DNA from: Escherichia coli
GTDB lineage: Bacteria > Pseudomonadota > Gammaproteobacteria > Enterobacterales > Enterobacteriaceae
Direction: 5' to 3' (one strand)
Length of the DNA stretch: 64,000 nucleotides
Assembly: GCF_013122565.1 (NCBI RefSeq)
Contig: NZ_CP053258.1
The translations under genes were made by a program, and so were the position numbers. This document shows, in pieces, positions 13,904 to 50,227 of the stretch (positions within the stretch are counted from its first letter, which is position 1; each line of letters begins with the position of its first letter). The notes under the pieces are model-generated. The model searched no databases. It saw only the letters and a list, made by a program, of their open reading frames with translations, and had not been told where the DNA came from.

Positions 13904-15448
13904 ATGGATGTCATTAAAAAGAAACATTGGTGGCAAAGCGACGCGCTGAAATGGTCAGTGCTAGGTCTGCTCGGCCTGCTGGTGGGTTACCTTGTTGTTT
14001 TAATGTACGCACAAGGGGAATACCTGTTCGCCATTACCACGCTGATATTGAGTTCAGCGGGGCTGTATATTTTCGCCAATCGTAAAGCCTACGCCTGGCG
14101 CTATGTTTACCCGGGAATGGCTGGAATGGGATTATTCGTCCTCTTCCCTCTGGTCTGCACCATCGCCATTGCCTTCACCAACTACAGCAGCACTAACCAG
14201 CTGACTTTTGAACGTGCGCAGGAAGTGTTGTTAGATCGCTCCTGGCAAGCAGGCAAAACCTATAACTTTGGTCTTTACCCGGCGGGCGATGAGTGGCAAC
14301 TGGCGCTCAGCGACGGCGAAACCGGCAAAAATTACCTCTCCGACGCGTTTAAATTTGGCGGCGAGCAAAAACTGCAACTGAAAGAAACGACCGCCCAGCC
14401 CGAAGGCGAACGCGCGAATCTGCGCGTGATTACCCAGAACCGCCAGGCGCTGAGTGACATTACCGCCATTCTGCCGGATGGCAACAAAGTGATGATGAGC
14501 TCCCTGCGCCAGTTTTCTGGCACGCAGCCGCTCTACACACTCGACGGTGACGGCACGTTGACGAATAATCAGAGTGGCGTGAAATATCGTCCGAATAACC
14601 AAATTGGCTTTTACCAGTCCATTACCGCCGACGGCAACTGGGGGGATGAAAAGCTAAGCCCCGGTTACACCGTGACCACCGGCTGGAAAAACTTTACCCG
14701 CGTCTTCACCGACGAAGGCATTCAGAAACCGTTCCTCGCCATTTTCGTCTGGACCGTGGTGTTCTCGCTAATCACTGTCTTTTTAACGGTGGCAGTCGGC
14801 ATGATTCTGGCGTGTCTGGTGCAGTGGGAAGCGTTGCGCGGCAAAGCGGTCTATCGCGTCCTGCTGATTCTGCCCTACGCGGTGCCATCGTTCATTTCAA
14901 TCTTGATTTTCAAAGGGTTGTTTAACCAGAGCTTCGGTGAGATCAACATGATGTTGAGCGCGCTGTTTGGCGTGAAGCCCGCCTGGTTCAGCGATCCGAC
15001 CACCGCCCGCACGATGCTGATTATCGTCAATACCTGGCTGGGTTATCCGTACATGATGATCCTCTGCATGGGCTTGCTGAAAGCGATTCCGGACGATTTG
15101 TATGAAGCCTCAGCAATGGATGGCGCAGGTCCGTTCCAGAACTTCTTTAAGATTACGCTGCCGCTGCTGATTAAACCGCTGACGCCGCTGATGATCGCCA
15201 GCTTCGCCTTTAACTTTAACAACTTCGTGCTGATTCAACTGTTAACCAACGGCGGCCCGGATCGTCTTGGCACGACCACGCCAGCCGGTTATACCGACCT
15301 GCTTGTTAACTACACCTACCGCATCGCTTTTGAAGGCGGCGGGGGTCAGGACTTCGGTCTGGCGGCAGCAATTGCCACGCTGATCTTCCTGCTGGTGGGT
15401 GCGCTGGCGATAGTGAACCTGAAAGCCACGCGAATGAAGTTTGATTAA
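13904..15448 (+). CDS. malF: Maltose ABC transporter permease
   Basis: ORF-track entry 13889-15448; start trimmed to ATG 13904 ([17 protein letters not shown]...), 514 aa. Confidence 0.95.
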
Positions 15449-15462
15449 GGGAGATAACAAAA

Positions 15463-16353
15463 ATGGCAATGGTCCAACCGAAATCGCAAAAAGCACGTTT
15501 GTTTATTACTCACCTGCTACTGCTACTTTTTATCGCGGCGATTATGTTCCCGCTGCTGATGGTCGTCGCTATCTCGCTGCGTCAGGGAAACTTCGCGACC
15601 GGTAGCCTGATCCCGGAGCAAATCTCCTGGGATCACTGGAAACTGGCGTTAGGTTTTAGCGTTGAACAGGCTGATGGTCGCATTACGCCACCGCCATTCC
15701 CGGTACTGCTGTGGCTGTGGAACTCGGTAAAGGTCGCCGGGATTTCCGCGATTGGCATTGTGGCGCTCTCCACCACCTGCGCCTACGCTTTCGCCCGTAT
15801 GCGCTTTCCAGGCAAAGCGACGCTGCTGAAAGGAATGCTGATTTTCCAGATGTTCCCGGCAGTACTTTCACTGGTCGCGTTGTATGCGTTGTTTGATCGT
15901 CTGGGTGAGTACATTCCATTCATTGGCCTGAATACTCACGGCGGCGTAATTTTCGCGTATCTGGGTGGGATTGCGCTGCACGTCTGGACCATCAAAGGCT
16001 ATTTCGAAACCATCGACAGTTCGCTGGAAGAAGCGGCTGCGCTGGATGGTGCGACACCGTGGCAGGCCTTCCGCCTTGTCCTGTTGCCGCTGTCAGTACC
16101 GATTCTGGCGGTGGTATTCATCCTGTCGTTTATCGCTGCCATTACTGAAGTTCCGGTCGCGTCGCTGTTACTGCGTGACGTAAACAGCTACACCCTGGCC
16201 GTGGGAATGCAGCAATACCTCAACCCGCAAAACTACCTGTGGGGTGACTTTGCCGCCGCTGCCGTGATGTCTGCATTACCGATCACCATCGTCTTCTTGC
16301 TGGCTCAACGCTGGCTGGTCAACGGCCTGACGGCAGGTGGTGTGAAAGGTTAA
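15463..16353 (+). CDS. malG: Maltose ABC transporter permease
   Basis: 296-aa [42 protein letters not shown]... Confidence 0.95.
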
Positions 16354-16423
16354 AGATGTTGTTCTGCCAATGTTATGCCGCTGCACCCTCAACTTACGTT
16401 ATCCCAACTTGTGACTGTTATTC

Positions 16424-16448
16424 GGCGCTCCACGGAGCGCCTTTTTTT
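16424..16448 (+). terminator. Rho-independent terminator after malG, overlapping the psiE 3' end
   Basis: ggcgctccacggagcgcc hairpin followed by ttttttt. Confidence 0.6.
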
Positions 16449-16857
16449 ACTCCCGCTTCAGCCGTTTCGAATTACACAGCCACAGGGTGATCACCAGTAA
16501 CAGGATCGCAGCTGAGTAGATCAACACATCCAGTGGCGATTTATGATCGACGATGATCAAGCGTACAATGGCGGTGATCCCAATATAGACAAAGTAACGT
16601 AGCGGGAAGTGAAAACCGGACTGAAAGTACTTCACAATCAGCGCGATAAATTCGAAATAGAGAAAATAAACCACCAGCCCTTCTACCAGCTCATATTTGC
16701 TGGTTTGTTCTGGCGCGAACAGCACATCAGCCAGATGCACCGTTTCTTTGCCGAGGAAGACAACCAAAATCAGGCCGAGGCACAACAGGCCAAGATTGAG
16801 TACGGTCTGCAAAATGGTGGAGATAAACTCCACGCGCGGACGAGAGAGTGACGTCAT
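16447..16857 (-). CDS. psiE: Phosphate-starvation-inducible protein E
   Basis: ORF-track entry 16447-16992; start trimmed to ATG 16855-16857 ([25 protein letters not shown]...), 136 aa. Confidence 0.9.
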
Positions 16858-17071
16858 AGCAGTACCTCCTTCACAGTGGCGAGCTTCCTGTATAACGCAA
16901 AAATGTGACGGAGATCTATATTTTTCGTGTATGTTTTGTTCAGCTCGATTAAGTGGGCATCTCCCATCAACGTCGCATCTGGCAAAACACACAGCCCCAA
17001 AAAATCACCCATTCAGGTGATTCCCAGCCACCAGCAATGCGCGAAAAATCGACAATGTTCCTCTGGAACAA

Positions 17072-17350
17072 ATGAAACGTAACCTGATAAAGGTGGTAAA
17101 AATGAAGCCTTATTTTGCTGCTTTGATGTTATCAGTCTCTGTTCTTCCTGCTTATGCTGGTCCGCTCGGTACTGCTGATAAAGCCGACCTACCGCAAAGC
17201 AATGTCTCCAGCCCAATGATGGCCCAGTCGCTCAGGCAACCAGACCTGCAACCGATATCGACGGACAGGAAGACAGAATGTTTTCGCCTTTACACACCAG
17301 ATCGCAAACCGGGGGTGAACTGCGTTCCTGATGGCTCAACAGGCCATTAA
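17072..17350 (+). CDS. yjbT: Small putative secreted protein
   Basis: 92-aa ORF with signal-peptide-like N-terminus (MKPYFAALMLSVSVLPAYA); RBS aaaggtgg precedes the internal ATG, so the start may be the first or second Met. Confidence 0.6.
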   Translation: MKRNLIKVVKMKPYFAALMLSVSVLPAYAGPLGTADKADLPQSNVSSPMMAQSLRQPDLQPISTDRKTECFRLYTPDRKPGVNCVPDGSTGH

Positions 17351-25509: not shown

Positions 25510-25782
25510 ATGGCACTCCCCCGTATTACCCAAAAAGAGATGACTGAACGCGAGCAACGTGAACTTAAAACACTGCTGGATCGCGCGCGGATTGCGCATG
25601 GTCGCGTACTGACCAACTCCGAAACCAACAGCATTAAGAAAGAGTACATCGATAAATTAATGGTCGAGCGTGAGGCTGAAGCGAAAAAAGCCCGCCAGTT
25701 AAAGAAAAAGCAGGCTTATAAACCGGATCCTGAAGCGTCATTTAGCTGGTCAGCAAATACGTCGACGCGCGGCAGGCGCTGA
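25510..25782 (+). CDS. yjbD: DUF3811-family small protein
   Basis: 90-aa ORF MALPRITQKEMTEREQRELKTLLDRARIAHGRVL...; position between lysC and rluF matches K-12 synteny. Confidence 0.85.
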   Translation: MALPRITQKEMTEREQRELKTLLDRARIAHGRVLTNSETNSIKKEYIDKLMVEREAEAKKARQLKKKQAYKPDPEASFSWSANTSTRGRR

Positions 25783-26655
25783 TTAGCGCCCCTTCTTTTT
25801 ACGCCCCGGCGAGGTAAAACGCTTACCGTTGGACGCCGGGCGACCGCCTTTTTCCGCCGTTTTTTCCATCTTAACGACTGGACGTTTGATGCCTAACGTT
25901 TTCGGCTTGGCCTTCGCTTTAGGTTTTGCCTCGGAAGAGGAATTTTCGATGAGCTTAAAGAGGTCGATTAACTCATCGTCAGTTAAATCGCGCCACTCAC
26001 CCAGCGGAATGCCGCTTAAGCTGACGTTCATAATGCGCGTACGTTCCAGCTTTTTCACTTCGTAACCAAAGTGTTCGCACATGCGACGGATCTGACGGTT
26101 CAGCCCCTGCACCAGGGTAATGCGGAAGACAAACGGCGCTTCTTTTTTGACTTTGCACTTTTTCGTCACCGTCCCGAGGATCGGCACTCCCGCCCCCATA
26201 CCACGAATAAATTCATCGGTAATCGGTTTATCGACCGTCACCAGATACTCTTTCTCATGATCGTTACCCGCTCGGAGGATCTTATTCACCAGATCGCCGT
26301 GATTGGTGAGGAAAATCAGCCCCTGGGAGTCTTTATCCAGCCGGCCAATCGGGAACACGCGTTTGCTGTGGTTAACGAAATCGACAATGTTATCGCGCTC
26401 GCCATCTTCGGTGGTGCTGACAATACCGACGGGCTTGTTCAGGGCGATAAGTACCAAATCTTCGGCTTCCCGAGGCTCAATTAACTGACCGTTTACTTTC
26501 ACAACGTCGCCGGGTTTCACCTGATCGCCAATGGTGGCTCGCTTGCCATTAAGGAACACATTGCCTTGCTCGATATAGCGATCCGCTTCGCGGCGTGAGC
26601 AAATTCCGCTTTCGCTGATGTATTTATTTAAACGGACTGATGAGTCGGGCAGCAT
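25783..26655 (-). CDS. rluF: 23S rRNA pseudouridine synthase F
   Basis: 290-aa ORF with S4 domain and RsuA-type catalytic region; basic Lys-rich C-terminal tail. Confidence 0.93.
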
Positions 26656-27002
26656 AAATTCTCCTGTAAAACGCGGAATATACCGTACCTCTTAGCGGGG
26701 AAAAACAGGGTTATGCGGCAACGTCGAAATTAAATGTGATCTGCCACGCCTTTTATCACAAAAGTGTCTCCGGAAGTACGATGCAAATTTGCCTGGCAAA
26801 ATAAGGATAATCAACATATTACGAATCGCTGCACACCTGTGCTGATGACTACTACGCAGAGAAACAAATGTGCAAGAGAAAGCGCTATTTCTCCCCATGC
26901 AAAGAGTGAAAAATCGCTTTGAAAGGCCCTCATGATGGGGTTATATCAGATCAAGCGGTGAGAAAGCGTATTTGCACAGATGTGCAGAACCAGGAGGCGG
27001 CA

Positions 27003-27950
27003 ATGGAAAACAGTGACGATATCCGTTTGATTGTGAAGATTGCCCAACTCTATTACGAACAGGATATGACGCAGGCGCAAATCGCGCGCGAACTGGGTAT
27101 TTACCGCACCACCATCAGCCGCTTGCTTAAACGAGGCCGCGATCAGGGAATTGTCACCATCGCCATCAACTATGACTACAACGAAAATCTCTGGCTCGAG
27201 CAGCAACTGAAGCAAAAGTTTGGCCTGAAAGACGTTGTGGTGGTGTCGGGAAATGATGAGGATGAAGAGACTCAACTGGCGATGATGGGGTTACACGGCG
27301 CGCAACTGCTGGATCGCTTGCTGGAGCCTGGCGATATTGTCGGTTTTTCCTGGGGTCGCGCGGTGAGCGCACTGGTTGAAAACTTGCCGCAGGCGGGGCA
27401 ATCGCGGCAGTTAATCTGCGTACCAATTATTGGCGGACCGTCCGGTAAACTCGAAAGCCGCTATCACGTAAACACATTAACCTACAGCGCGGCAGCGAAG
27501 CTGAAAGGGGAATCGCATCTCGCGGATTTTCCGGCTCTGCTGGATAACCCATTAATTCGTAATGGGATCATGCAGTCTCAGCACTTTAAAACCATCTCTG
27601 CCTACTGGGATAATCTGGATGTCGCCCTGGTGGGAATTGGCTCACCGGCCATTCGCGACGGCGCTAACTGGCATGCGTTTTATGGTGGTGAAGAGAGTGA
27701 CGACCTGAATGCCCGCCAGGTTGCTGACGATATTTGCTCGCGCTTTTTTGATATTCACGGCGCAATGGTTGAAACGAATATGAGCGAAAAAACACTCTCT
27801 ATCGAAATGAATAAATTAAAGCAGGCGCGGTATTCCATTGGCATTGCCATGAGTGAAGAAAAATACAGCGGAATTGTTGGTGCACTGCGTGGAAAATATA
27901 TTAATTGTCTGGTAACGAATAGCAGCACAGCTGAACTATTACTGAAATAA
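27003..27950 (+). CDS. sorC: SorC-family transcriptional regulator of the sorbose operon
   Basis: ORF-track entry 26919-27950; start at ATG 27003 with RBS caggagg (MENSDDIRLIVKIAQLYYEQDMTQAQIAREL... HTH plus sugar-binding domain), 315 aa. Confidence 0.8.
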   Translation: MENSDDIRLIVKIAQLYYEQDMTQAQIARELGIYRTTISRLLKRGRDQGIVTIAINYDYNENLWLEQQLKQKFGLKDVVVVSGNDEDEETQLAMMGLHGAQLLDRLLEPGDIVGFSWGRAVSALVENLPQAGQSRQLICVPIIGGPSGKLESRYHVNTLTYSAAAKLKGESHLADFPALLDNPLIRNGIMQSQHFKTISAYWDNLDVALVGIGSPAIRDGANWHAFYGGEESDDLNARQVADDICSRFFDIHGAMVETNMSEKTLSIEMNKLKQARYSIGIAMSEEKYSGIVGALRGKYINCLVTNSSTAELLLK

Positions 27951-28019
27951 AAATCTTCCCGATGTTTACCGTAATAAAAATTACGGCGGGTCCCTATTAT
28001 CTAAAATCAGGAGTCTGTT

Positions 28020-28826
28020 ATGCAAACGTGGTTAAATTTGCAGGATAAAATCATTATCGTCACCGGCGGCGCATCCGGTATTGGTCTGGCGATTGTAGAG
28101 GAATTATTATCACAAGGCGCAAACGTACAGATGGTAGATATTCACGGTGGCGATGGTCAATATGAAGGTCATAAAGGCTATCAGTTTTGGCCGACCGATA
28201 TTTCCAGCGCCAAAGAGGTAAATCATACGGTAGCGGAAATTATTCAGCGTTTTGGTCGCATCGACGGTCTGGTCAATAACGCCGGGGTCAATTTCCCGCG
28301 TCTGCTGGTCGATGAGAAAGCGCCTGCCGGGCAGTATGAACTCAACGAAGCTGCATTCGAAAAAATGGTCAATATCAACCAGAAAGGCGTTTTTCTGATG
28401 TCGCAGGCGGTGGCGCGACAGATGGTCAAACAACATGATGGCGTGATTGTGAATGTTTCCTCAGAAAGTGGACTGGAAGGCTCAGAAGGCCAAAGCTGTT
28501 ACGCCGCTACCAAAGCCGCGCTCAATAGCTTCACGCGCTCCTGGTCGAAAGAATTGGGTAAACACGGTATCCGTGTGGTCGGTATCGCGCCCGGGATTCT
28601 GGAAAAAACCGGGCTACGCACGCCGGAATATGAAGAGGCGCTGGCGTGGACGCGCAATATCACCGTCGAGCAGCTGCGTGAAGGCTATACCAAAAACGCC
28701 ATTCCTATTGGGCGCGCCGGAAGATTAGCAGAAGTCGCTGATTTTGTTTGTTATCTGCTGTCTGAACGCGCCAGCTACATCACCGGAGTAACCACTAACA
28801 TTGCGGGCGGCAAAACACGCGGATAA
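28020..28826 (+). CDS. sorD: Short-chain dehydrogenase, sorbitol(glucitol)-6-phosphate dehydrogenase type
   Basis: 268-aa SDR with TGGASGIGLA Rossmann motif and YxxxK catalytic motif; RBS aggag. Confidence 0.8.
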   Translation: MQTWLNLQDKIIIVTGGASGIGLAIVEELLSQGANVQMVDIHGGDGQYEGHKGYQFWPTDISSAKEVNHTVAEIIQRFGRIDGLVNNAGVNFPRLLVDEKAPAGQYELNEAAFEKMVNINQKGVFLMSQAVARQMVKQHDGVIVNVSSESGLEGSEGQSCYAATKAALNSFTRSWSKELGKHGIRVVGIAPGILEKTGLRTPEYEEALAWTRNITVEQLREGYTKNAIPIGRAGRLAEVADFVCYLLSERASYITGVTTNIAGGKTRG

Positions 28827-28835
28827 GGAGGCTTT

Positions 28836-29243
28836 ATGGTCAACGCCATTTTTTGTGCCCACGGCAAATTAGCTTGCGCCATGCTGGAATCGGTTCAGAT
28901 GGTTTACGGCAACGCCAATGTTGAAGCCGTTGAATTTGTGCCCGGTGAAAACGCCGGAGACATCGTAGCAAAGCTGGAAAAGTTAGTAAGCATTCACAAT
29001 CAAGATGAGTGGCTGATTGCCGTGGATTTACAGTGCGGCAGCCCGTGGAATGCGGCAGCGATGCTTGCGATGCGCAATCCTCGTCTGCGGGTAATCAGCG
29101 GCCTTGCTCTGCCGCTGGCGCTCGAACTGGTTGATAACCAGGACAGCATGAATGTTGATGAACTGTGTGAACACCTGACGCAAATCGCAAAGCAATCCTG
29201 CGTCGTCTGGAGACAGGTGGCAACGGCAGAGGAGGATTTCTGA
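28836..29243 (+). CDS. sorF: PTS mannose/sorbose-family EIIA component
   Basis: 135-aa ORF MVNAIFCAHGKLACAMLESVQMVYG...; RBS aaggagg. Confidence 0.8.
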   Translation: MVNAIFCAHGKLACAMLESVQMVYGNANVEAVEFVPGENAGDIVAKLEKLVSIHNQDEWLIAVDLQCGSPWNAAAMLAMRNPRLRVISGLALPLALELVDNQDSMNVDELCEHLTQIAKQSCVVWRQVATAEEDF

Positions 29244-29737
29244 TGAACATTACGCTCGCCCGCATTGATGACCGCCTGATCCACGGTCAGGTCACTACCG
29301 TCTGGTCGAAAGTGGCTAACGCCCAGCGCATTATTATCTGCAATGACGAAGTTTATAACGATGAAGTTCGCCGGACATTATTGCGTCAGGCTGCGCCACC
29401 GGGAATGAAGGTTAACGTGGTCAATATTGAAAAAGCCGTCGCTGTTTATCACAACCCGCAATATCAGGACGAAACCGTTTTTTATCTTTTTACTCGCCCA
29501 CAGGATGCCTTAGCGATGGTTCGCCAGGGGGTAAAAATAGGCACCCTGAATATTGGCGGCATGGCCTGGCGGCCCGGTAAAAAACAGTTAACCAAAGCGG
29601 TTTCATTAGATGATGATGATATTAACGCATTTCATGAGTTAAATAATCTTGGTGTCATACTGGATTTACGCGTCGTAGCGTCAGATCCCTCAATCAATAT
29701 TATCGACAAAATAAACGAACAGTTAATCGCAAATTAA
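29243..29737 (+). CDS. sorB: PTS mannose/sorbose-family EIIB component
   Basis: 164-aa ORF MNITLARIDDRLIHGQVTTVW...; start overlaps the sorF stop (TGATG). Confidence 0.8.
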   Translation: MNITLARIDDRLIHGQVTTVWSKVANAQRIIICNDEVYNDEVRRTLLRQAAPPGMKVNVVNIEKAVAVYHNPQYQDETVFYLFTRPQDALAMVRQGVKIGTLNIGGMAWRPGKKQLTKAVSLDDDDINAFHELNNLGVILDLRVVASDPSINIIDKINEQLIAN

Positions 29738-29802
29738 ATAATAGCGCCTGTGTACATATGCTTTAACAGGCAGGGATGACGACACTTAAAAGGTGACAAA
29801 TC

Positions 29803-30591
29803 ATGGAAATAAGTACCCTACAAATCATTGCTATATTTCTTTTTTCCTGTATTGCCGGAATGGGCAGTGTGCTGGATGAATTTCAGACTCATCGCCCGTT
29901 AATTGCCTGTACGGTGATTGGTTTAATTCTCGGTGATTTAAAAACCGGAATAATACTCGGTGGTACGCTGGAATTGATAGCTCTCGGCTGGATGAACGTC
30001 GGCGCGGCACAATCTCCGGATTCTGCACTCGCCAGCATAATCTCCGCCATTCTGGTTATCGTTGGTCAGCAAAGCATCGCCACCGGAATCGCCATCGCGT
30101 TGCCTGTGGCTGCGGCAGGCCAGGTGCTGACGGTGTTTGCCCGTACCATCACCGTAGTGTTCCAGCACGCGGCGGATAAAGCAGCGGAAGAAGCACGGTT
30201 TCGCACTCTCGATATTCTGCATGTCTCCGCGCTTGGCGTGCAGGCGCTGCGCGTTGCTATTCCGGCACTGATTGTCTCGCTGTTCGTCAGCGCCGATATG
30301 GTCAGCAATATGTTAAACGCCATTCCCGAATTTGTGACCCGAGGTCTGCAAATTGCTGGCGGTTTTATCGTGGTGGTCGGTTACGCCATGGTGCTACGTA
30401 TGATGGGCGTGAAATATTTGATGCCTTTCGGTTTCCTCGCAGGTGGCTACCTCGATCTCAGTCTGCTGGCGTTCGGTGGCGTCGGCGTGATCATGGCCCT
30501 GGTCTACATCCAGCTAAATCCACAGTGGCGTAAAGCTGAACCTCAACTCCAGGCCACCGCCTCCACCGCCCTTGACCAACTTGACGATTAA
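29803..30591 (+). CDS. sorA: PTS mannose/sorbose-family EIIC component
   Basis: 262-aa hydrophobic ORF MEISTLQIIAIFLFSCIAGMGSVLDEF... Confidence 0.8.
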   Translation: MEISTLQIIAIFLFSCIAGMGSVLDEFQTHRPLIACTVIGLILGDLKTGIILGGTLELIALGWMNVGAAQSPDSALASIISAILVIVGQQSIATGIAIALPVAAAGQVLTVFARTITVVFQHAADKAAEEARFRTLDILHVSALGVQALRVAIPALIVSLFVSADMVSNMLNAIPEFVTRGLQIAGGFIVVVGYAMVLRMMGVKYLMPFGFLAGGYLDLSLLAFGGVGVIMALVYIQLNPQWRKAEPQLQATASTALDQLDD

Positions 30592-30601
30592 CGGAGCCAT
30601 C

Positions 30602-31426
30602 ATGGAACAGAGAAAAATTACACGCAGCGATCTGGTGAGCATGTTTCTGCGCTCCAACCTGCAACAGGCGTCCTTTAACTTTGAACGTATTCACGGGCTG
30701 GGTTTTTGCTACGACATGATCCCCGCCATCAAGCGACTTTACCCATTAAAAGAGGATCAGGTTGCGGCGCTCAGGCGACACCTGGTGTTCTTTAATACCA
30801 CGCCAGCCGTATGTGGCCCGGTCATCGGCGTCACTGCCGCCATGGAAGAGGCGCGGGCCAACGGCGCGGAAATTGATGACGGTACCATTAACGGCATCAA
30901 AGTCGGCCTGATGGGACCGTTGGCAGGGGTTGGCGATCCACTGGTCTGGGGAACGCTGCGCCCGATTACCGCCGCGCTCGGCGCATCTCTGGCACTTTCT
31001 GGCAACATCCTCGGCCCGCTTTTGTTTTTCTTTATTTTCAATGCGGTGCGTCTGGCGATGAAGTGGTATGGCCTACAGCTCGGCTTTCGCAAAGGGGTGA
31101 ATATCGTCAGCGATATGGGCGGGAATGTGCTGCAAAAACTCACCGAAGGCGCGTCGATTCTCGGACTGTTTGTGATGGGCGTGCTGGTGACCAAATGGAC
31201 GTCAATCAACGTACCGTTGGTGGTTTCACAAACGCATGCCGCCGATGGCTCCACCGTCACCATGACCGTGCAGAACATTCTCGACCAACTTTGCCCTGGT
31301 TTGCTGGCGCTCGGTCTGACGCTACTAATGGTTCGTCTGCTCAACAAAAAAATTAACCCGGTATGGCTGATTTTCGCCCTGTTTGGCTTAGGGATTATCG
31401 GCAATGCGCTGGGCTTCCTGTCCTGA
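30602..31426 (+). CDS. sorM: PTS mannose/sorbose-family EIID component
   Basis: ORF-track entry 30572-31426; start at ATG 30602 with RBS acggag (MEQRKITRSDLVSMFLRSNLQQASFNFERIHGLGF...), 274 aa. Confidence 0.8.
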   Translation: MEQRKITRSDLVSMFLRSNLQQASFNFERIHGLGFCYDMIPAIKRLYPLKEDQVAALRRHLVFFNTTPAVCGPVIGVTAAMEEARANGAEIDDGTINGIKVGLMGPLAGVGDPLVWGTLRPITAALGASLALSGNILGPLLFFFIFNAVRLAMKWYGLQLGFRKGVNIVSDMGGNVLQKLTEGASILGLFVMGVLVTKWTSINVPLVVSQTHAADGSTVTMTVQNILDQLCPGLLALGLTLLMVRLLNKKINPVWLIFALFGLGIIGNALGFLS

Positions 31427-31477
31427 TTCTTCGCCCCGGCACGACTGCCGGGGCCATCGCTCAACATGAGGTGGTTT

Positions 31478-32707
31478 ATGAAAACAACAGCTCTGCGTCT
31501 TTATGGTAAACGTGATTTACGCCTGGAAACCTTTGATCTTCCTGAAATGCAGGAGGATGAAATCCTCGCGACGGTGGTCACTGACAGCCTGTGCCTCTCT
31601 TCCTGGAAAGAGGCCAACCTGGGTGAAAACCATAAAAAAGTACCCGACGATGTGGCGACCAACCCCATCATCATCGGCCACGAGTTTTGCGGCGATATTC
31701 TGGCCGTGGGTAAAAAGTGGCAGCACAAATTTCAGCCGGGCCAGCGCTATGTGATTCAGGCCAACCTGCAATTGCCGGATCGCCCGGACTGCCCCGGCTA
31801 CTCCTTCCCGTGGGTGGGCGGTGAAGCCACACATGTGGTTATCCCAAATGAGGTTATGGAACAAGATTGCCTGCTGGCATACGACGGCGAAACCTATTTT
31901 GAAGGCTCGCTGGTTGAACCGCTTTCCTGCGTGATTGGCGCGTTCAACGCCAACTATCATCTTCAGGAAGGTAGTTATAACCACACGATGGGGATTCGCC
32001 CGCAAGGGCGCACGCTGATCCTCGGCGGCACCGGACCAATGGGACTGTTGGCGATTGATTATGCGCTGCATGGACCAGTTAACCCGTCGCTGCTCGTCAT
32101 TACCGATACCGACAACGACAAATTGAGTTATGCGCGCAAGTACTATCCATCAGAACCGCAAACACTGATTCATTATCTCAATGCCGCCGATGCAGCATTT
32201 GGTACGTTAATGGCACTGAGTGGCGGTCACGGCTTCGATGATATTTTCGTCTTTGTGCCTAATGAAGGACTGGTGACTCTCGCCTCTTCCTTGCTGGCGA
32301 CAGATGGTTGCCTGAATTTCTTCGCCGGACCGCAGGATAAACATTTCAGCGCGCCAATTAATTTCTACGATGTGCATTATGCATTTACCCACTACGTGGG
32401 CACGTCAGGCGGCAATACCGACGACATGCGCGCGGCGGTCAAACTGATCGAAGAGAAAAAAGTGCAGGCCGCAAAAGTGGTAACACATATTCTTGGGCTG
32501 AATGCCGCGGGCGAAACCACGCTTGAATTGCCTGCCGTCGGCGGCGGCAAAAAGCTGGTGTATACCGGGAAATACCTGCCGCTGACGTCACTCACGCAGA
32601 TTCAGGATCAAGCACTGGCGGCGATTCTGGCGCGTCATCAGGGGATCTGGTCCGGTGAGGCGGAGCAATACCTGCTCGCCCATGCAGAAGCAATTTCCCA
32701 TGATTAA
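31478..32707 (+). CDS. sorE: Zn-dependent MDR-family dehydrogenase, sorbose-1-phosphate reductase type
   Basis: ORF-track entry 31466-32707; start at ATG 31478 with RBS gaggtgg (MKTTALRLYGKRDLRLETF...GHEFCGDI...), 409 aa. Confidence 0.8.
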   Translation: MKTTALRLYGKRDLRLETFDLPEMQEDEILATVVTDSLCLSSWKEANLGENHKKVPDDVATNPIIIGHEFCGDILAVGKKWQHKFQPGQRYVIQANLQLPDRPDCPGYSFPWVGGEATHVVIPNEVMEQDCLLAYDGETYFEGSLVEPLSCVIGAFNANYHLQEGSYNHTMGIRPQGRTLILGGTGPMGLLAIDYALHGPVNPSLLVITDTDNDKLSYARKYYPSEPQTLIHYLNAADAAFGTLMALSGGHGFDDIFVFVPNEGLVTLASSLLATDGCLNFFAGPQDKHFSAPINFYDVHYAFTHYVGTSGGNTDDMRAAVKLIEEKKVQAAKVVTHILGLNAAGETTLELPAVGGGKKLVYTGKYLPLTSLTQIQDQALAAILARHQGIWSGEAEQYLLAHAEAISHD

Positions 32708-32865
32708 TCGCGCTACTTAACTCTGCATGTCGCTGGCTGGTCGCCGCGGCAACTTCGCGACCTGATGTGCGGCTGATTGCAGAAGCGGCACAATGTGCAC
32801 GAGAAGGATAAAAAACATCAGCGCCTTAAGGGGCGCTCAAATTGGTAGCAAAGTGCACATTGTTT

Positions 32866-32975
32866 ATGCCGGATGCGGAATGAAGCCTTATTCGGTCTAC
32901 ATAATTTTGAAAATTCAATATATTGCAGTTATCTGGTAGGCCTGGTAAGCGTAGCGCATCAGGCAATGCTGTGTT
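32866..32975. repeat. REP elements between sorE and pepE
   Basis: gccggatgcggaatgaagccttattcggtctaca ... taggcctggtaagcgtagcgcatcaggca. Confidence 0.6.
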
Positions 32976-33088
32976 TGTCATCAGTCTCAGCGCCCGGTGC
33001 AATACGTGACATCGTGAGCCATGTCAGTAAGTGGTTAAATTCGCAGTGGTAGCATTCCTTCCGTGATTTCTTGCTAACCGGAGAAGTA

Positions 33089-35718: not shown

Positions 35719-39402
<3,684 letters not shown>

Positions 39403-39601
39403 ACTTGCTCCCGACACGCTCAACCCAGATTTAATAAAAATTCAACAAACCATACTGGCATAAACGCATCTGTGGTAAAAGCAACCACTACCCAACATGA
39501 GATTTGTTCAACATTAACTCATCGGATCAGTTCAGCAACTATTGCATTAGCTAACAATAAAAATGAAAATGATTTCCACGATACAGAAAAAGGAGACTGT
39601 C

Positions 39602-40426
39602 ATGGTCGCACCCATTCCCGCGAAACGCGGCAGAAAACCCGCCGTTGCCACCGCACCAGCGACTGGACAGGTTCAGTCTTTAACGCGTGGCCTGAAATTA
39701 CTGGAGTGGATTGCCGAATCCAATGGCAGTGTGGCACTCACGGAACTGGCGCAACAAGCCGGGTTACCCAATTCCACGACCCACCGCCTGCTAACCACGA
39801 TGCAACAGCAGGGTTTCGTGCGTCAGGTCGGCGAACTGGGACATTGGGCAATCGGCGCACATGCCTTTATGGTCGGCAGCAGCTTTCTCCAGAGCCGTAA
39901 TTTGTTAGCAATTGTTCACCCTATCCTGCGCAATTTAATGGAAGAGTCTGGCGAAACGGTCAATATGGCGGTGCTTGATCAAAGCGATCACGAAGCGATT
40001 ATTATCGACCAGGTACAGTGTACGCATCTGATGCGAATGTCCGCGCCTATCGGCGGTAAATTGCCGATGCACGCTTCCGGTGCGGGTAAAGCCTTTTTAG
40101 CCCAACTGAGCGAAGAACAGGTGACGAAGCTGCTGCACCGCAAAGGGTTACATGCCTATACCCACGCAACGCTGGTGTCTCCTGTGCATTTAAAAGAAGA
40201 TCTCGCCCAAACGCGCAAACGGGGTTATTCATTTGACGATGAGGAACATGCGCTGGGGCTACGTTGCCTTGCAGCGTGTATTTTCGATGAGCACCGTGAA
40301 CCGTTTGCCGCAATTTCTATTTCCGGACCGATTTCACGTATTACCGATGACCGCGTGACCGAGTTTGGCGCGATGGTGATTAAAGCGGCGAAGGAAGTGA
40401 CGCTGGCCTATGGCGGGATGCGGTGA
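39602..40426 (+). CDS. iclR: Glyoxylate-shunt repressor IclR
   Basis: ORF-track entry 39563-40426; start at ATG 39602 with RBS aaaggag (MVAPIPAKRGRKPAVATAPATGQVQSLTRGLKLLEW...), 274 aa. Confidence 0.95.
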   Translation: MVAPIPAKRGRKPAVATAPATGQVQSLTRGLKLLEWIAESNGSVALTELAQQAGLPNSTTHRLLTTMQQQGFVRQVGELGHWAIGAHAFMVGSSFLQSRNLLAIVHPILRNLMEESGETVNMAVLDQSDHEAIIIDQVQCTHLMRMSAPIGGKLPMHASGAGKAFLAQLSEEQVTKLLHRKGLHAYTHATLVSPVHLKEDLAQTRKRGYSFDDEEHALGLRCLAACIFDEHREPFAAISISGPISRITDDRVTEFGAMVIKAAKEVTLAYGGMR

Positions 40427-40442
40427 CATTTTCGCTTCTGAT

Positions 40443-42167
<1,725 letters not shown>

Positions 42168-42193
42168 TTAGCGCCCTCATCAAGAGCAAAGAA

Positions 42194-42238
42194 TTGCCGG
42201 ATGCGGCGTGAACGCCTTATCCGGCCTACAGTCAGCAA
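42194..42238. repeat. REP element in the aceA-aceK intergenic region
   Basis: gccggatgcggcgtgaacgccttatccggcctaca. Confidence 0.6.
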
Positions 42239-42251
42239 CGGTTGTTGTTGC

Positions 42252-43556
42252 TTAGAACTGCGATTCTTCGGTGGAGCCAGTTAGCGCGGTAACTGACGAC
42301 GTACCGCCCTGAATAATGGTCGTCACTTTATCGAAATAACCTGTACCCACTTCCTGCTGGTGAGATACGAAGGTATAGCCATCTTTCGCAGCGGCAAATT
42401 CCGGCTGCTGCACTTTCTCAACATAGTGCTTCATACCCTCGCCCTGGGCATAGGCGTTTGCCAGGTCGAACATGTTGAACCACATGCTGTGGATACCTGC
42501 CAGGGTGATGAACTGGAACTTGTAGCCCATATCCGACAGCTGCTGCTGGAAGCTGGCAATAGTTTTGTCGTCGAGGTTTTTCTGCCAGTTGAACGACGGC
42601 GAGCAGTTATAAGCCAGCAGTTTGCCTGGATATTTCGCGTGGATAGCTTGTGCAAAGCGACGCGCCAGTTCCAGATCCGGCGTGGAGGTTTCACACCATA
42701 CCAGGTCAGCATATGGCGCATACGCCAGGCCACGGCTGATCGCTTGCTCAATGCCCGCATGAGTACGGAAGAAGCCTTCACTGGTACGCTCGCCGGTAAT
42801 AAATTCGCTGTCATACGGGTCGCAATCGGAGGTGATCAGATCCGCCGCATCGGCATCGGTACGAGCAACCAGCAGAGTCGGAACGCCCGTCACGTCAGCC
42901 GCCAGACGCGCCGCAACCAGTTTCTGAATAGCTTCCTGAGTTGGCACCAAAACTTTGCCGCCCATGTGACCGCATTTCTTCACTGACGCCAGCTGATCTT
43001 CGAAGTGAACTGCCGCTGCACCGGCTTCAATCATCGCTTTCATCAGTTCAAAGGCATTCAGGACACCGCCAAAACCGGCTTCCGCATCGGCAACGATCGG
43101 CAGGAAGTAATCGACATAGCGCGGATCGCCCGGCTCAATACCCGCGGACCATTGGATCTGATCCGCACGGCGGAAGGTGTTGTTGATCCGCTCCACCACA
43201 GCTGGCACCGAGTTTGCCGGATAGAGCGACTGATCCGGATACATGCTGGCCGCCAGGTTAGCGTCCGCCGCTACCTGCCATCCCGACAGATAGACCGCTT
43301 CAATACCCGCTTTCGCCTGTTGCAGCGCCTGACCGCCAGTCAGTGCACCGAGGCTGTTGATGTAGCCTTTTTTCGACTCGCCATGCAGCAGACGCCACAT
43401 TTTCGCCGCGCCCAGTTGCGCCAGCGTGCATTCAGGATTGACTGAACCGCGTAATTTCACCACATCTTCCGCGCTGTATGGGCGAGTAATGCCTTCCCAA
43501 CGCGGTTGAGTCCACTCTTTCTGTAATTCTTCAATTTGTTGTGTACGGGTTTTCAT
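42252..43556 (-). CDS. aceA: Isocitrate lyase
   Basis: ORF-track entry 42252-43571; start at ATG 43554-43556 ([23 protein letters not shown]...), 434 aa. Confidence 0.97.
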
Positions 43557-43585
43557 GTGCAGATGCTCCATAGTTATGTGGTGGT

Positions 43586-45187
43586 TTACGCTAACAGGCG
43601 GTAGCCTGGCAGGGTCAGGAAATCAATTAACTCATCGGAAGTGGTGATCTGTTCCATCAAGCGTGCGGCATCGTCAAAACGCCCCTGGGAGAAACGTTCT
43701 TCGCCCAGTTCGCTGGCAATGACTTTCATCTCTTCGCCCAGCATCTGGCGGAACAAGGCTTTGGTCACCGGTTTGCCATTGCTCAACGTTTTTTGATGAT
43801 GGATCCACTGCCAGATTGAGGTACGGGAAATTTCAGCCGTCGCCGCATCTTCCATCAGGCCATAAATCGGCACGCAGCCGTTGCCGGAGATCCACGCTTC
43901 AATGTACTGCACAGCCACGCGAATGTTGGCGCGCATACCTTCTTCGGTGCGTTCACCATCACAAGGTGCCAGCAGCTGATCGGCAGTAATCGGCGCGTCT
44001 TGTTCGCGCAATACTTCAAGCTGATTTTTACGGGAGCCGAGAATGTCGTTGAATACCGCCATTGCCGTGTCCGCAAGGCCTGGGTGAGCGATCCATGTGC
44101 CATCGTGACCGTTATTGGCTTCCAGCGCTTTATCCGCTTTTACTTTGTTGAGCACCTGGTTATTACGCTCTTCATCTTTGCTCGGAATAAACGCCGCCAT
44201 GCCGCCCATCGCAAAAGCACCGCGTTTATGGCAGGTTTTAATCAACAGGCGTGAGTAAGCATTCAGGAAGGGTTTATCCATCGTCACTGCCTGTCTGTCT
44301 GGCAGGACGCGATCGGGATAGTTTTTCAACGTTTTGATATAACTGAAGATGTAATCCCAACGACCGCAGTTCAGACCAACAATATGGTCACGCAGCGCGT
44401 GAATGATTTCATCCATCTGGAACACGGCGGGCAGCGTTTCAATCAGCAACGTCGCCTTGATGGTGCCGCGCGGCAGATTAAAGCGATCTTCTGCATAGCT
44501 GAAGACTTCACTCCACCAGGCCGCTTCCTGCCAGGACTGGGTTTTCGGCAGATAGAAATAGGGACCGCTGCCCTTTGCCAACAGTGCCTGATAGTTGTGG
44601 AAGAAATAGAGCGCAAAATCAAACAGGCTACCGGGGATTGCCTCACCACGCCAGGTGACATGTTTTTCCGGCAAGTGCAGACCGCGTACCCGACAAATCA
44701 AAACCGCTGGATTGGGCTTGAGCTGATAAATTTTGCCTGCTTCATTCGTGTAACTGATGGTGCCGTTAACCGCATCGCGCAGGTTAATTTGCCCGTCGAT
44801 CACTTTGTTCCAGTCTGGTGCCAGTGAATCTTCGAAATCGGCCATAAAGACTTTCACATTGGCGTTCAGTGCGTTGATCACCATCTTGCGCTCAACCGGG
44901 CCAGTTATCTCGACTCGACGATCTTGTAAGTCCGCAGGAATACCACGAATTTTCCAGCCTGCATCACGAATGGAAGCTGTTTCCGAAATAAAATCAGGCA
45001 ACGTTCCGTTATCGATATCCTGCTGCTGCTGAATGCGCGCTGCCAGAAGTTTATTGCGTTGTGGCGTAAAATGCGTCACCAGCTCAGTCAGAAATTCTAC
45101 CGCTTCGGCAGTAAGAATTTGCTTCTCCTGCTCGCCATACGGCCTTGTGAAAGCCAGTTCATCGGTTGTTGTTGCCTGTTCAGTCAT
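43586..45187 (-). CDS. aceB: Malate synthase A
   Basis: ORF-track entry 43586-45205; start at ATG 45185-45187 ([25 protein letters not shown]...), 533 aa. Confidence 0.97.
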
Positions 45188-45384
45188 CGTGCAGCTCCTC
45201 GTCATGGATCCGAAAACTTCCCCACTGTGAACGAAGGATCGTTGTGCGCTTTTCGTTCAGCACAACTAAGACTACTCATTTAAAATGCAAAATCAAAAAC
45301 AATTTCCATTTTAATTAAAAATACTTGATAACTTATTGATAACAATATAAATAAAATTTATTCACCTACTGAGGTGCGTTTCGG

Positions 45385-45412
45385 AAATAAAAAAGGCACC
45401 CGAAGGTGCCTG
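45385..45412 (-). terminator. Rho-independent terminator downstream of metA
   Basis: Minus-strand RNA forms ggcaccttcgggtgcc hairpin followed by uuuuuu. Confidence 0.65.
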
Positions 45413-45455
45413 AGGTAAGGTGCTGAATCGCTTAACGATCGACTATTACAGAAGA

Positions 45456-46385
45456 TTAATCCAGCGTTGGATTCATGTGCCGTAGATCGTATGGCGTGAT
45501 CTGGTAGACGTAATAGTTGAGCCAGTTGGTAAACAGCAAATTACCGTGACTACGCCAGCTCGCTCGCGGTTTGTTTTGCGGATCATTGTGCGGGAAATAG
45601 TTATACGGTACTTCCGGGTCTAGTCCGGCTTCCACATCGCGGAAATATTCTTGCGCCAGCGTTTGCGCATCATATTCGGGATGGCCCGTCACAAAGGCAA
45701 TGCGCTTATCTTTGCTGGCAAACAGATATGCATCCCCTCCTTCCGTCTCTGCCAGAATTTCCAGATCGGTGTAATCACGAATCAACGCTGCCGGAAAGTC
45801 AGCATAGCGCGAATGCGGTGCCAGGAATGAATCATCAAAGCCACGCGTCAGAAGCGCATGAGGATGGAGAATATGATGCTCGTAAACGCCAGAGAGTTTG
45901 TCGGTGCGAGTTTGCTTAGGAATGCCGTAGAGGATATTGAGCGCGGCCTGTACCGCCCAGCAGACAAACAGCGTCGAGGTGACGTGATCTTTCGACCACT
46001 CCAGCACCTGTTTGATCTGCGGCCAGTAAGCGACATCATTAAACTCTACCAGGCCCAGCGGCGCACCAGTTACAATCAAACCGTCAAAGTTCTGATCCTG
46101 AATATCTTCAAAGTTACAGTAGAAGTTATTCAGATGCTCTGCGGGCGTGTTGCGCGACTCGCGGGAATCGATGCGCAACAGCTGAATATCGACCTGCAAA
46201 GGCGAGTTTGAAAGCAGGCGCAGAAATTGATTTTCAGTTTCAATCTTCTTCGGCATCAGGTTAAGGATAAGCACCTTTAGCGGACGAATTTCCTGACCAG
46301 ACGCACGAGAAGTTGTCATCACAAAGACGTTTTCTTCACGCAAGAAATTGACGGCGGGTAGCTCGTCCGGCACACGAATCGGCAT
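45456..46385 (-). CDS. metA: Homoserine O-succinyltransferase
   Basis: 309-aa [48 protein letters not shown]... Confidence 0.95.
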
Positions 46386-46541
46386 AACCTGATTACCTCA
46401 CTACATACGCTTATACGTTTAGACATCCAGATAGCTGAAGATAACCAGAAAATTTGCCAATGTCGAGCCTGCATGTTGAAGGTGAGAAAGTTTCAAGGAA
46501 AAGACTACGTTAGAATATAAGAATGACTAAAAGGAGTGAAA

Positions 46542-46985
46542 ATGGTTATTAGTATTCGCCGCTCACGGTATGAGGAAGGGGAGGAACTCGTTGCGATTTG
46601 GTGTCGATCTGTCGATGCCACCCACGATTTTTTATCAGCAGAGTATCGGGCCGAGCTGGAAGAGCTGGTTCGTTCCTTTCTGCCGGAAGCACCGTTGTGG
46701 GTCGCGGTTAATGAACGGGATCAGCTGGTTGGGTTTATGTTGTTAAGTGGGCAGCATATGGATGCGCTGTTTATCGATCCTGATGTGCGCGGCTGCGGCG
46801 TGGGTCGGATGCTGGTGGAGCATGCGCTCTCGATGGCACCGGAACTGACAACCAACGTTAATGAGCAAAATGAGCAGGCGGTTGGGTTCTATAAGAAGGT
46901 GGGTTTTAAGGTTACTGGACGCTCTGAGGTGGACGATTTGGGGAAACCGTATCCGTTGCTGAATCTGGCGTATGTGGGGGAATAA
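46542..46985 (+). CDS. yjaB: GNAT-family N-acetyltransferase
   Basis: ORF-track entry 46536-46985 starts at GTG; ATG 46542 with RBS aaggag gives MVISIRRSRYEEGEELVAIW..., 147 aa. Confidence 0.9.
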   Translation: MVISIRRSRYEEGEELVAIWCRSVDATHDFLSAEYRAELEELVRSFLPEAPLWVAVNERDQLVGFMLLSGQHMDALFIDPDVRGCGVGRMLVEHALSMAPELTTNVNEQNEQAVGFYKKVGFKVTGRSEVDDLGKPYPLLNLAYVGE

Positions 46986-47068
46986 GCTGCCCCCTATCGT
47001 GCTATCGTGCCTGCGTAAGCTGGATAAGACGCGCCAGCGTCGCATCCGGCATTTTTTTCTGCGCCAAT

Positions 47069-47096
47069 GCAAAAAGGCCATCCGTCAGGATGGCCT
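47069..47096 (-). terminator. rrnE operon terminator
   Basis: Minus-strand RNA forms aggccatcctgacggatggcct hairpin followed by uuuuu, immediately 3' of the 5S rRNA; a REP-like element lies adjacent at about 47010-47052. Confidence 0.65.
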
Positions 47097-47109
47097 TTCG
47101 CTTAATTTG

Positions 47110-47229
47110 ATGCCTGGCAGTTCCCTACTCTCGCATGGGGAGACCCCACACTACCATCGGCGCTACGGCGTTTCACTTCTGAGTTCGGCATGGGGTCAGG
47201 TGGGACCACCGCGCTACGGCCGCCAGGCA
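47110..47229 (-). rRNA. rrfE: 5S ribosomal RNA
   Basis: 120-nt reverse complement matches the E. coli 5S sequence (ugccuggcggccguagcgcggugg...gggaacugccaggcau). Confidence 0.95.
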
Positions 47230-47323
47230 AATTCTGTTTTATTAACCCGCTTATCGCCGGTTAATGTAATCTGTATCAGGCTGAAAATCTTCTCTCAATC
47301 CGCCAAAACATCTTCGGCGTTGT

Positions 47324-50227
<2,904 letters not shown>

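What the first reader, a model, noticed from the sequence alone, without database searches (positions are those of the whole stretch)
16354..16446. xylE (xylose-proton symporter) is missing between malG and psiE
The malG stop (16353) and the psiE stop (16447) are only about 90 bp apart, and that gap is occupied by a single hairpin terminator. In K-12, as I remember it, the roughly 1.5-kb xylE gene sits here. Its clean absence, with no IS or scar, suggests a strain-specific indel affecting low-affinity xylose uptake.
Basis: partly seen in the sequence, partly recalled or inferred. Interest (0 to 1): 0.4.

Follow-up and report, generated by a model that had tools for sequence, protein, structure and literature searches.

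The report
xylE-free malG–psiE junction, a known polymorphism
This E. coli lacks the low-affinity xylose transporter gene xylE that K-12 carries between malG and psiE, but a third of sequenced E. coli and most related species lack it too, this has already been published, and the short gap that remains holds the intact small RNA MalH.

Summary
malG ends at 16353, psiE ends at 16447 on the minus strand, and the 93 bp between them contain no xylE. Compared with K-12, exactly 1,797 bp are absent: the xylE promoter, gene and terminator. The breakpoints lie in the T-runs of two terminators, which share 5 nt, and there is no IS element or scar.

The interpretation as a strain-specific deletion is not supported.
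- The same junction occurs in 1,786 of 5,426 complete E. coli genomes, and the xylE segment occurs in 3,639. Together these make 5,425, so xylE has not moved elsewhere.
- Four other Escherichia species have the empty junction, with no xylE.
- In 49 of 80 Enterobacteriaceae species loci, a hairpin plus T-run abuts the psiE stop codon with nothing inserted.
- Published work already reports xylE absent from strain 042, with weaker growth on xylose, and lists xylE as gained in the E/B1/A lineage.

The gap is more than a hairpin. It is the body and terminator of the MalH sRNA, 100% identical to K-12.

The empty site is most likely ancestral here (about 0.6). A clean secondary loss remains possible (about 0.35), because strain HH97 shows one and because xylE at this site is as old as the genera. 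Interest is low and the finding is already known.

The parts
15463..16353 (+). malG (maltose ABC transporter permease), last gene of malEFG
   Evidence: ORF. The protein is 100% identical to K-12-type MalG.
16345..16448 (+). MalH sRNA, derived from the malG 3' end. It comprises the last codons of malG, the stop codon, a conserved body and a Rho-independent terminator. The 104-nt extent is inferred by analogy with MG1655.
   Evidence: [quoted passage not shown] Window 16290-16443 is 100% identical to the K-12-type sequence. Rfam has no family for it.
16375..16419 (+). Conserved non-coding boxes of the MalH body: ATGCCGCTGCACCCTCAACTT ... ACTTGTGACTGTT
   Evidence: Conserved across 26 species-level sequences from many genera (alignment A1; raw gaps).
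16424..16441 (+). Terminator hairpin of malEFG/MalH: 7-bp GC-rich stem, 4-nt loop
   Evidence: Found by the terminator scan. All stem positions are paired in 26 sequences, and two pairs show compensatory double changes in 9 sequences.
16442..16448 (+). T7 run, the U-tract of the terminator. It is also the empty site: in K-12 the 1,797-bp xylE segment lies between the equivalents of 16448 and 16449, and the position is ambiguous by 5 nt of T. Its last two T's belong to the psiE stop codon.
   Evidence: BLAST pieces from xylE-positive genomes overlap at query positions 445-449.
16447..16857 (-). psiE (phosphate-starvation-inducible protein), convergent with malG
   Evidence: Translation. The protein is 100% identical to E. 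coli PsiE. The scan found no terminator-like site on the minus strand downstream of psiE.

Best explanation
The window carries the xylE-free form of a common, already described presence/absence polymorphism at the malG-psiE junction. In this form the malEFG/MalH terminator (hairpin plus T7) directly abuts the psiE stop codon. This is the arrangement seen in most Enterobacteriaceae sampled, and in this lineage it is most likely the site that was never occupied. K-12 and the rest of the A/B1/C/E lineage carry an extra 1,797-bp segment containing the xylE promoter, xylE and the xylE terminator. That segment sits between the T-run and the psiE stop codon. The 93-bp gap is functional DNA: it encodes the body and terminator of the MalH sRNA, unchanged from K-12. 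The expected consequence is loss of only the low-affinity xylose/H+ symporter. Uptake would then rest on XylFGH, which lies outside the window and was not tested, giving weaker but not abolished growth on xylose. Shown here: the anatomy, the frequencies and the cross-species architecture. Inferred: the direction of change (never occupied versus lost) and the phenotype.
For: Breakpoints and size. Frequency: the contiguous junction is in 1,786 of 5,426 complete E. coli genomes and the xylE segment is in 3,639; together 5,425. xylE-less examples include GABEEC132, which lacks arpA and has yjaA (a B2-type marker pattern), PCN033, and a large group at 97.9% identity. Outgroups E. whittamii, E. albertii, Escherichia sp. 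E1V33 and Escherichia sp. MOD1-EC7003 all lack xylE here. Of 80 species-representative loci, 49 have a hairpin plus T-run abutting the psiE stop, 9 have xylE, and only C. braakii shows remnants of the xylE segment. Real deletions leave scars: C. braakii has a 382-bp gap, most Salmonella contigs read have a 165-bp gap that keeps both ends of the segment, and E. coli PCN061 keeps the first 285 bp. In K. oxytoca the segment begins with TTATTCGCGTTTCAG, a 14/15 copy of the psiE 3' end that follows it. That is a target-duplication-like signature of insertion. Literature: xylE is listed as gained in the EB1A lineage (PMC6896753, Table S5). Strain 042 lacks xylE, has xylFGH and metabolises xylose less well (PMC2808357). 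MalH is described in PMC8081044, and the hairpin shows covariation.
Against: xylE occupies the same site, with homologous junctions, in E. coli, Salmonella enterica, the Citrobacter freundii complex and K. oxytoca. Its divergence between genera (81.6-85.3% nt) equals that of the flanking malF, malG and yjbH. The segment is therefore about as old as the genera, not a recent import. The flanks in K-12 are native E. coli sequence up to the T-runs, including the loop sequence CACG found in the E. coli sequences examined but not in the other Escherichia, Citrobacter or Salmonella sequences. No donor tract is visible. Strain HH97 has flanks identical to K-12 (1,373 bp on the left, at least 500 bp on the right, 0 SNPs) yet lacks xylE with the same clean junction, so clean loss does happen. 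The state of E. fergusonii is unknown. The source lineage is 1.6-2.5% diverged from every complete E. coli genome searched, so its place in the tree is uncertain.
Confidence: 0.6

Rival explanations
1. Secondary clean loss. An ancestor of this lineage carried the xylE segment and lost it exactly. This happened either by recombination or slippage between the T-runs that follow the two same-direction terminators (5-nt microhomology in E. coli), or by replacement with an empty allele through homologous recombination. Either route recreates the ancestral-looking junction.
For: HH97 has flanks identical to K-12, lacks xylE, and has the same junction. Citrobacter sp. FP75 (L060) is empty but is closer in malG to xylE-positive C. 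gillenii (92.4%) than that species is to C. werkmanii (90.5%). The divergence of the segment between genera matches the core genes in four genera, implying long residence. Salmonella was ancestrally xylE-positive, as its scar shows. Recombination with a crossover at the MalH terminator/T-run is documented in the Salmonella/Citrobacter mosaic L099. The window's flanks are closer to A-type sequence (99.1% in malFG) than to B2-type (97.4%).
Against: Among E. coli genomes with xylE-type flanks, partial deletions (13 genomes below 80% coverage) outnumber clean ones (HH97 was the only one among the 60 top-ranked junction matches). All four other Escherichia species sampled, and D- and B2-type E. coli, are empty. 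That would require many independent exact losses. No remnant of any kind is present in the window.
Confidence: 0.35
2. Strain-specific recent deletion, the first reader's reading: a private indel of this isolate.
For: The absence is clean, and the source lineage is rare. Its exact YjbH protein was found only in one GenBank genome and one sequencing run.
Against: The identical junction is in 1,786 complete E. coli genomes and in other Escherichia species. The independent assembly from SRR11451224 that encodes the identical YjbH shows the same 93-bp gap.
Confidence: 0.03
3. Assembly or window artefact that collapsed the region.
For: None found.
Against: The same junction occurs in thousands of independent assemblies, and the flanking genes are intact.
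Confidence: 0.01

Closest known systems
xylE presence/absence polymorphism of E. coli (EAEC 042 versus MG1655; 'gained in EB1A lineage')
   Same: Same gene, same locus, same consequence. Strain 042 lacks xylE, keeps xylFGH and metabolises xylose less well (PMC2808357). xylE is listed among genes gained by the E/B1/A lineage (PMC6896753, Table S5). The window shows the xylE-less state.
   Different: The passages of those two papers that I read do not describe the junction. Here the breakpoints are resolved to the T-runs of two terminators, and the empty site is shown to be the arrangement in most Enterobacteriaceae sampled.
MalH, the sRNA derived from the malG 3' UTR (Iosub et al. 2020, PMC8081044)
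   Same: Same position (malG 3' end, stop codon and Rho-independent terminator) and 100% sequence identity to the K-12-type sequence over the 154 nt that end in the T-run.
   Different: MalH was characterised in MG1655, where xylE lies downstream. In this window the MalH U-tract overlaps the psiE stop codon, so psiE transcription converges directly on MalH. Expression was not tested.
Deletion scars of the same xylE segment in Salmonella enterica, Citrobacter braakii and E. coli PCN061
   Same: Same locus and same lost gene.
   Different: Those retain recognisable ends of the segment. Salmonella keeps about 27 nt of the left end plus the xylE terminator in a 165-bp gap. C. braakii has a 382-bp gap with xylE fragments. 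PCN061 keeps the first 285 bp. The window retains nothing.

Membership tests
xylE-free (empty-site) allele of the malG-psiE junction | malG and psiE are convergent and adjacent, with no XylE coding sequence between them | tested here: met
   a 93-bp gap and no XylE tblastn hit in the window.
xylE-free (empty-site) allele of the malG-psiE junction | The malEFG terminator hairpin plus T-run directly abuts the psiE stop codon, as in other empty genomes | tested here: met
   The same architecture is in 49 of 80 species loci and in 1,786 E. coli genomes.
xylE-free (empty-site) allele of the malG-psiE junction | xylE is not relocated elsewhere in the genome | not testable with these tools
   The source chromosome is not available beyond the window. 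Indirect evidence: across 5,426 E. coli genomes, xylE-positive (3,639) plus contiguous junction (1,786) = 5,425.
MalH sRNA | Located at the 3' end of malG, spanning the last codons, the stop codon and a Rho-independent terminator | tested here: met
MalH sRNA | Sequence identity with the experimentally characterised MG1655 MalH | tested here: met
   Window 16290-16443 is 100% identical to a K-12-type (O16:H48) genome. The MG1655 record itself was not fetched.
MalH sRNA | Processed from malEFG mRNA, binds Hfq, and pairs with ompC/ompA/MicA | not testable with these tools
   Needs RNA data. Taken from PMC8081044 for K-12 only.
Rho-independent terminator | GC-rich stem-loop followed by a U-tract, with the stem maintained by compensatory changes | tested here: met
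   (7 pairs, 6 of them GC, then T7). (100% of cells paired; 2 pairs with double changes; 0 of 500 shuffles reach the covariation score).
IS- or transposon-mediated deletion or insertion | IS remnant, transposase, terminal inverted repeats or a defined target-site duplication | tested here: not met
   No IS element or remnant of the xylE segment in the gap. By direct reading, the ends of the K-12 segment (CTTTCGTCTGC... / ...GGCGTGCTGAC) are not inverted repeats; the repeat finder was not run. Only a T5 repeat flanks the segment in E. coli. K. oxytoca has a 15-nt direct repeat.
Deletion scar of the xylE segment | Residual promoter, coding or terminator fragments of xylE | tested here: not met
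   The window's gap equals the left flank of K-12 up to the T-run and then continues into psiE. Compare the true scars.

The most novel reading that the evidence does not exclude
The xylE segment is an ancient gene cassette, as old as the genera. It is bounded by two same-direction intrinsic terminators and is repeatedly swapped in and out of the malG-psiE junction by short-homology recombination anchored on the highly conserved MalH terminator/T-run. This happens within species and even between genera, as in the Citrobacter-type cassette found in a Salmonella genome. In xylE-free strains such as this one, psiE, which has no terminator of its own, would be transcribed antisense across MalH. 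That would link phosphate starvation to maltose and porin regulation.
Probability: 0.2. Interest if true: 0.45.

Novelty: already known. Interest (0 to 1): 0.14.

Why it matters
It matters little. Loss of one of two xylose uptake routes is a known difference between E. coli lineages, with a modest growth phenotype. Two practical points follow. K-12 is not the default state at this locus: the empty junction is the arrangement in most of the family sampled. And the 'empty' gap is the MalH sRNA gene, so it should not be treated as a bare terminator. The cross-genus pattern is a small, tidy case study of how an accessory gene is gained and lost without trace. That pattern is the same site, host-like divergence, scars in Salmonella, a clean loss in HH97 and a Citrobacter/Salmonella mosaic.

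Tried and rejected
- Rfam scan of 16200-17100 at E-value up to 1 found no family, so MalH is not in Rfam.
- IS element or scar in the gap: none.
- Terminal inverted repeats or a transposase in the K-12 segment: none seen by reading the ends.
- A duplicated psiE 3' end at the left edge of the segment in E. coli, Citrobacter and Salmonella: no significant similarity. Only K. oxytoca has it.
- Apparent homology between the 62-nt extra left segment of E. coli and the 165-nt K. oxytoca segment: not significant, since 93 of 500 shuffles score as high. Claim dropped.
- Recent horizontal transfer of xylE from Citrobacter, Klebsiella or Salmonella into E. coli: rejected, because xylE is no more similar between genera than the flanking core genes.
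- Shigella as the source: rejected. No IS element was seen where the window was aligned to K-12 (16.8-52 kb), and the exact proteins are labelled E. coli from a single 4.82-Mb chromosome.
- MalH whole-molecule folding: not more stable than shuffles (z = -0.74). Only the terminator stem is supported.
- The state of E. fergusonii could not be determined.

Full report
**1. The observation**

The window reads malE (12560-13750), malF (13889-15448), malG (15463-16353) on the plus strand, then psiE (16447-16857) on the minus strand, followed by yjbH, yjbG, yjbF, yjbE and pgi. The gap 16354-16446 is 93 bp. It ends in a hairpin, GGCGCTC-CACG-GAGCGCC (16424-16441), followed by seven T's (16442-16448); the last two T's belong to the psiE stop codon.

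A pairwise alignment shows that window 16290-16443 equals the K-12 sequence up to the end of the malG terminator T-run (100% identity). Window 16444 onwards equals the K-12 sequence starting in the T-run that follows the xylE terminator. The missing piece is exactly 1,797 bp: the xylE promoter region, xylE and its terminator. The two ends share only TTTTT. No IS element, no xylE fragment and no XylE-like coding sequence is present anywhere in the 64-kb window.

**2. It is not strain-specific**

- The contiguous malG-psiE junction is present in 1,786 of 5,426 complete RefSeq E. coli genomes.
- The 1,797-bp xylE segment is present in 3,639 genomes.
- The two numbers add to 5,425, which is every genome that matched at all. 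This fits each genome having one state or the other, with no relocation of xylE.
- xylE-less genomes include GABEEC132, which lacks arpA and has yjaA (a B2-type marker pattern), PCN033, and a large group at 97.9% identity.
- The literature already records this. EAEC 042 lacks xylE, keeps xylFGH and metabolises xylose less well than MG1655 (PMC2808357). xylE is listed among genes gained by the E/B1/A lineage (PMC6896753, text and Table S5).

**3. What the gap is**

The 93 bp are not just a terminator. [quoted passage not shown] The window is 100% identical to the K-12-type sequence across this stretch.

Across 26 species-level sequences from many genera, two boxes are conserved (ATGCCACTGCAACCCTCAAC and ACTTGTGACTGT). 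The 7-bp terminator stem is paired in every sequence, with compensatory double changes at two pairs. Rfam has no model for it. The fold of the whole molecule is no more stable than shuffled sequence. The scan found no terminator-like site on the minus strand for psiE.

**4. Which state came first**

I fetched 80 psiE loci from species-representative genomes.

| State of the malG-psiE gap | Loci | Source |
|---|---|---|
| Hairpin plus T-run directly abutting the psiE stop | 49 | |
| xylE between malG and psiE (C. freundii complex, K. oxytoca) | 9 | |
| Other DNA after the T-run | 18 | |
| Incomplete malG/psiE pair | 4 | |

- Of the 18 loci with other DNA, only C. braakii carries xylE remnants.
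- All four non-coli Escherichia species sampled (E. albertii, E. whittamii, sp. E1V33, sp. MOD1-EC7003) are empty.
- True deletions at this locus look different. Most Salmonella contigs read have a 165-bp gap that keeps about 27 nt of the left end of the segment plus the xylE terminator hairpin, and the deletion is bounded by a GCTGATTT(T)AT repeat.
- C. braakii keeps 382 bp with xylE fragments, and E. coli PCN061 keeps the first 285 bp.
- In K. oxytoca the segment starts with a 14/15 copy of the psiE 3' end that follows it, which is an insertion signature.

Together with the published reconstruction, this makes the empty site the older state. In Escherichia, the K-12 state is the derived one.

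**5. Evidence that complicates this**

- xylE sits at the same site, with homologous junctions, in E. coli, Salmonella enterica, Citrobacter and K. oxytoca.
- Its divergence between genera (81.6-85.3% nt; 43-56% identity at fourfold sites) is the same as that of malF, malG and yjbH. The segment is therefore as old as the genera and was not recently imported into E. coli from any of them.
- The K-12 flanks are native E. coli sequence right up to the T-runs.
- Strain HH97 has flanks identical to K-12 (1,373 bp on the left, at least 500 bp on the right, no SNPs) yet lacks xylE with the same exact junction. A clean loss has therefore happened at least once.
- One Salmonella genome (L099) carries a Citrobacter-type segment, with the left crossover at the MalH terminator/T-run and the right crossover about 100 nt before the xylE stop. 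Recombination anchored on this terminator is therefore real.

For these reasons I cannot exclude that the window's lineage lost xylE cleanly. I put the never-occupied site at about 0.6 and clean secondary loss at about 0.35.

**6. The source**

The window lacks arpA (between iclR and aceK) and yjaA, and it carries the sorbose operon. It is 1.6-2.5% diverged from every complete RefSeq E. coli genome searched. Its exact proteins are found in one GenBank E. coli chromosome of 4,821,968 bp (QJU25967.1 and neighbours), and its YjbH also in one sequencing run whose assembly shows the same 93-bp gap. The rest of that chromosome could not be searched.

**7. Verdict**

This is a known, common lineage polymorphism with a modest, published phenotype, so interest is low. 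The added value is the exact anatomy, the identification of the gap as MalH, and a cross-genus picture of how the segment is gained, lost and exchanged.

Noticed in passing
window 26691-32998: A 6.3-kb insertion relative to K-12 lies between rluF and pepE. It is an L-sorbose operon: a SorC-type regulator, an SDR dehydrogenase, PTS IIA/IIB/IIC/IID components and sorE. The same operon is present in the B2-type strain GABEEC132.
   Followed up: partly
window 40433-40448 and 46981-47102: Two Clermont phylotyping markers are absent. arpA (annotated espL4 in K-12) is missing between iclR and aceK, and yjaA is missing between yjaB and the rrn operon. Together with the xylE-free site, this is not an A/B1 pattern, yet the sequence is closest to A-type genomes.
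   Followed up: partly
whole window: No complete RefSeq E. coli genome exceeds about 98.4% identity over 1-24000 or about 97.5% over 36000-47500. Five of the seven window proteins looked up (YjbH, RluF, the SDR dehydrogenase, PurD, ZraR) carry E. coli-only labels and few accessions; all seven sit on one 4,821,968-bp E. coli chromosome (QJU25967.1 and neighbours). YjbG is shared with more genomes. The source is a rare, divergent E. coli lineage.
   Followed up: partly
window 16943-16999: Upstream of psiE the window has 57 bp where K-12 has 112 bp. The difference removes much of a 47-aa 'hypothetical protein' ORF annotated in K-12 and HH97 (WP_000487766.1). GABEEC132 also lacks that annotation.
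   Followed up: no
L090 (E. coli HH97, NZ_CP116409) 1369-1373: HH97 is 100% identical to K-12 for 1,373 bp to the left and at least 500 bp to the right of the junction, but lacks the 1,797-bp xylE segment exactly. It also lacks arpA and has a truncated yjaA. It was the only such genome among the 60 top-ranked junction matches (of 1,786 with the contiguous junction).
   Followed up: partly
L094-L101 versus L091 and L099 (Salmonella enterica): Most Salmonella contigs read have a 165-bp malG-psiE gap that is a deletion scar of the xylE segment. A minority keep xylE. L099 is a mosaic with a Citrobacter-werkmanii-like segment (94-100% identity) inside Salmonella flanks.
   Followed up: yes
L068 (Klebsiella oxytoca), left end of the xylE segment: The segment begins with TTATTCGCGTTTCAG, a 14/15 direct repeat of the psiE 3' end (TTACTCGCGTTTCAG) that follows the segment. 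It looks like a target duplication or the product of a single crossover.
   Followed up: partly
L005, L037, L042, L043, L059, L061, L062, L065, L067, L075, L080 and Klebsiella/Raoultella loci: Insertions of roughly 100-130 bp, palindromic and resembling ERIC repeats (from memory, not verified), lie inside the MalH region between the malG stop and the terminator in Enterobacter, Lelliottia, Kosakonia and Klebsiella. They may alter or abolish MalH there.
   Followed up: no
L040, L044, L036, L034, L051, and the Kluyvera and Mangrovibacter loci: The spot just after the malG terminator T-run holds unrelated DNA in several genera. L040 has 4.7 kb with several long ORFs, L044 has 1.8 kb with two long ORFs, and others have short extra sequence. 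None of these ORFs was identified. The site appears to be a recurrent insertion point.
   Followed up: no
L085, L086, L087: XylE orthologues occupy other positions elsewhere. In Entomohabitans, xylE lies between psiE and pgi. In Shimwellia blattae, and in a genome labelled Salmonella Choleraesuis (AP025685), it lies within xylBA-xylE-xylR in place of xylFGH.
   Followed up: no
window 40448-42245 and 25774-26690: aceK (94.0%) and rluF (95.1%) are markedly more diverged from K-12 than the regional average of about 97.7%. These may be recombination tracts next to the arpA and sor indels.
   Followed up: no
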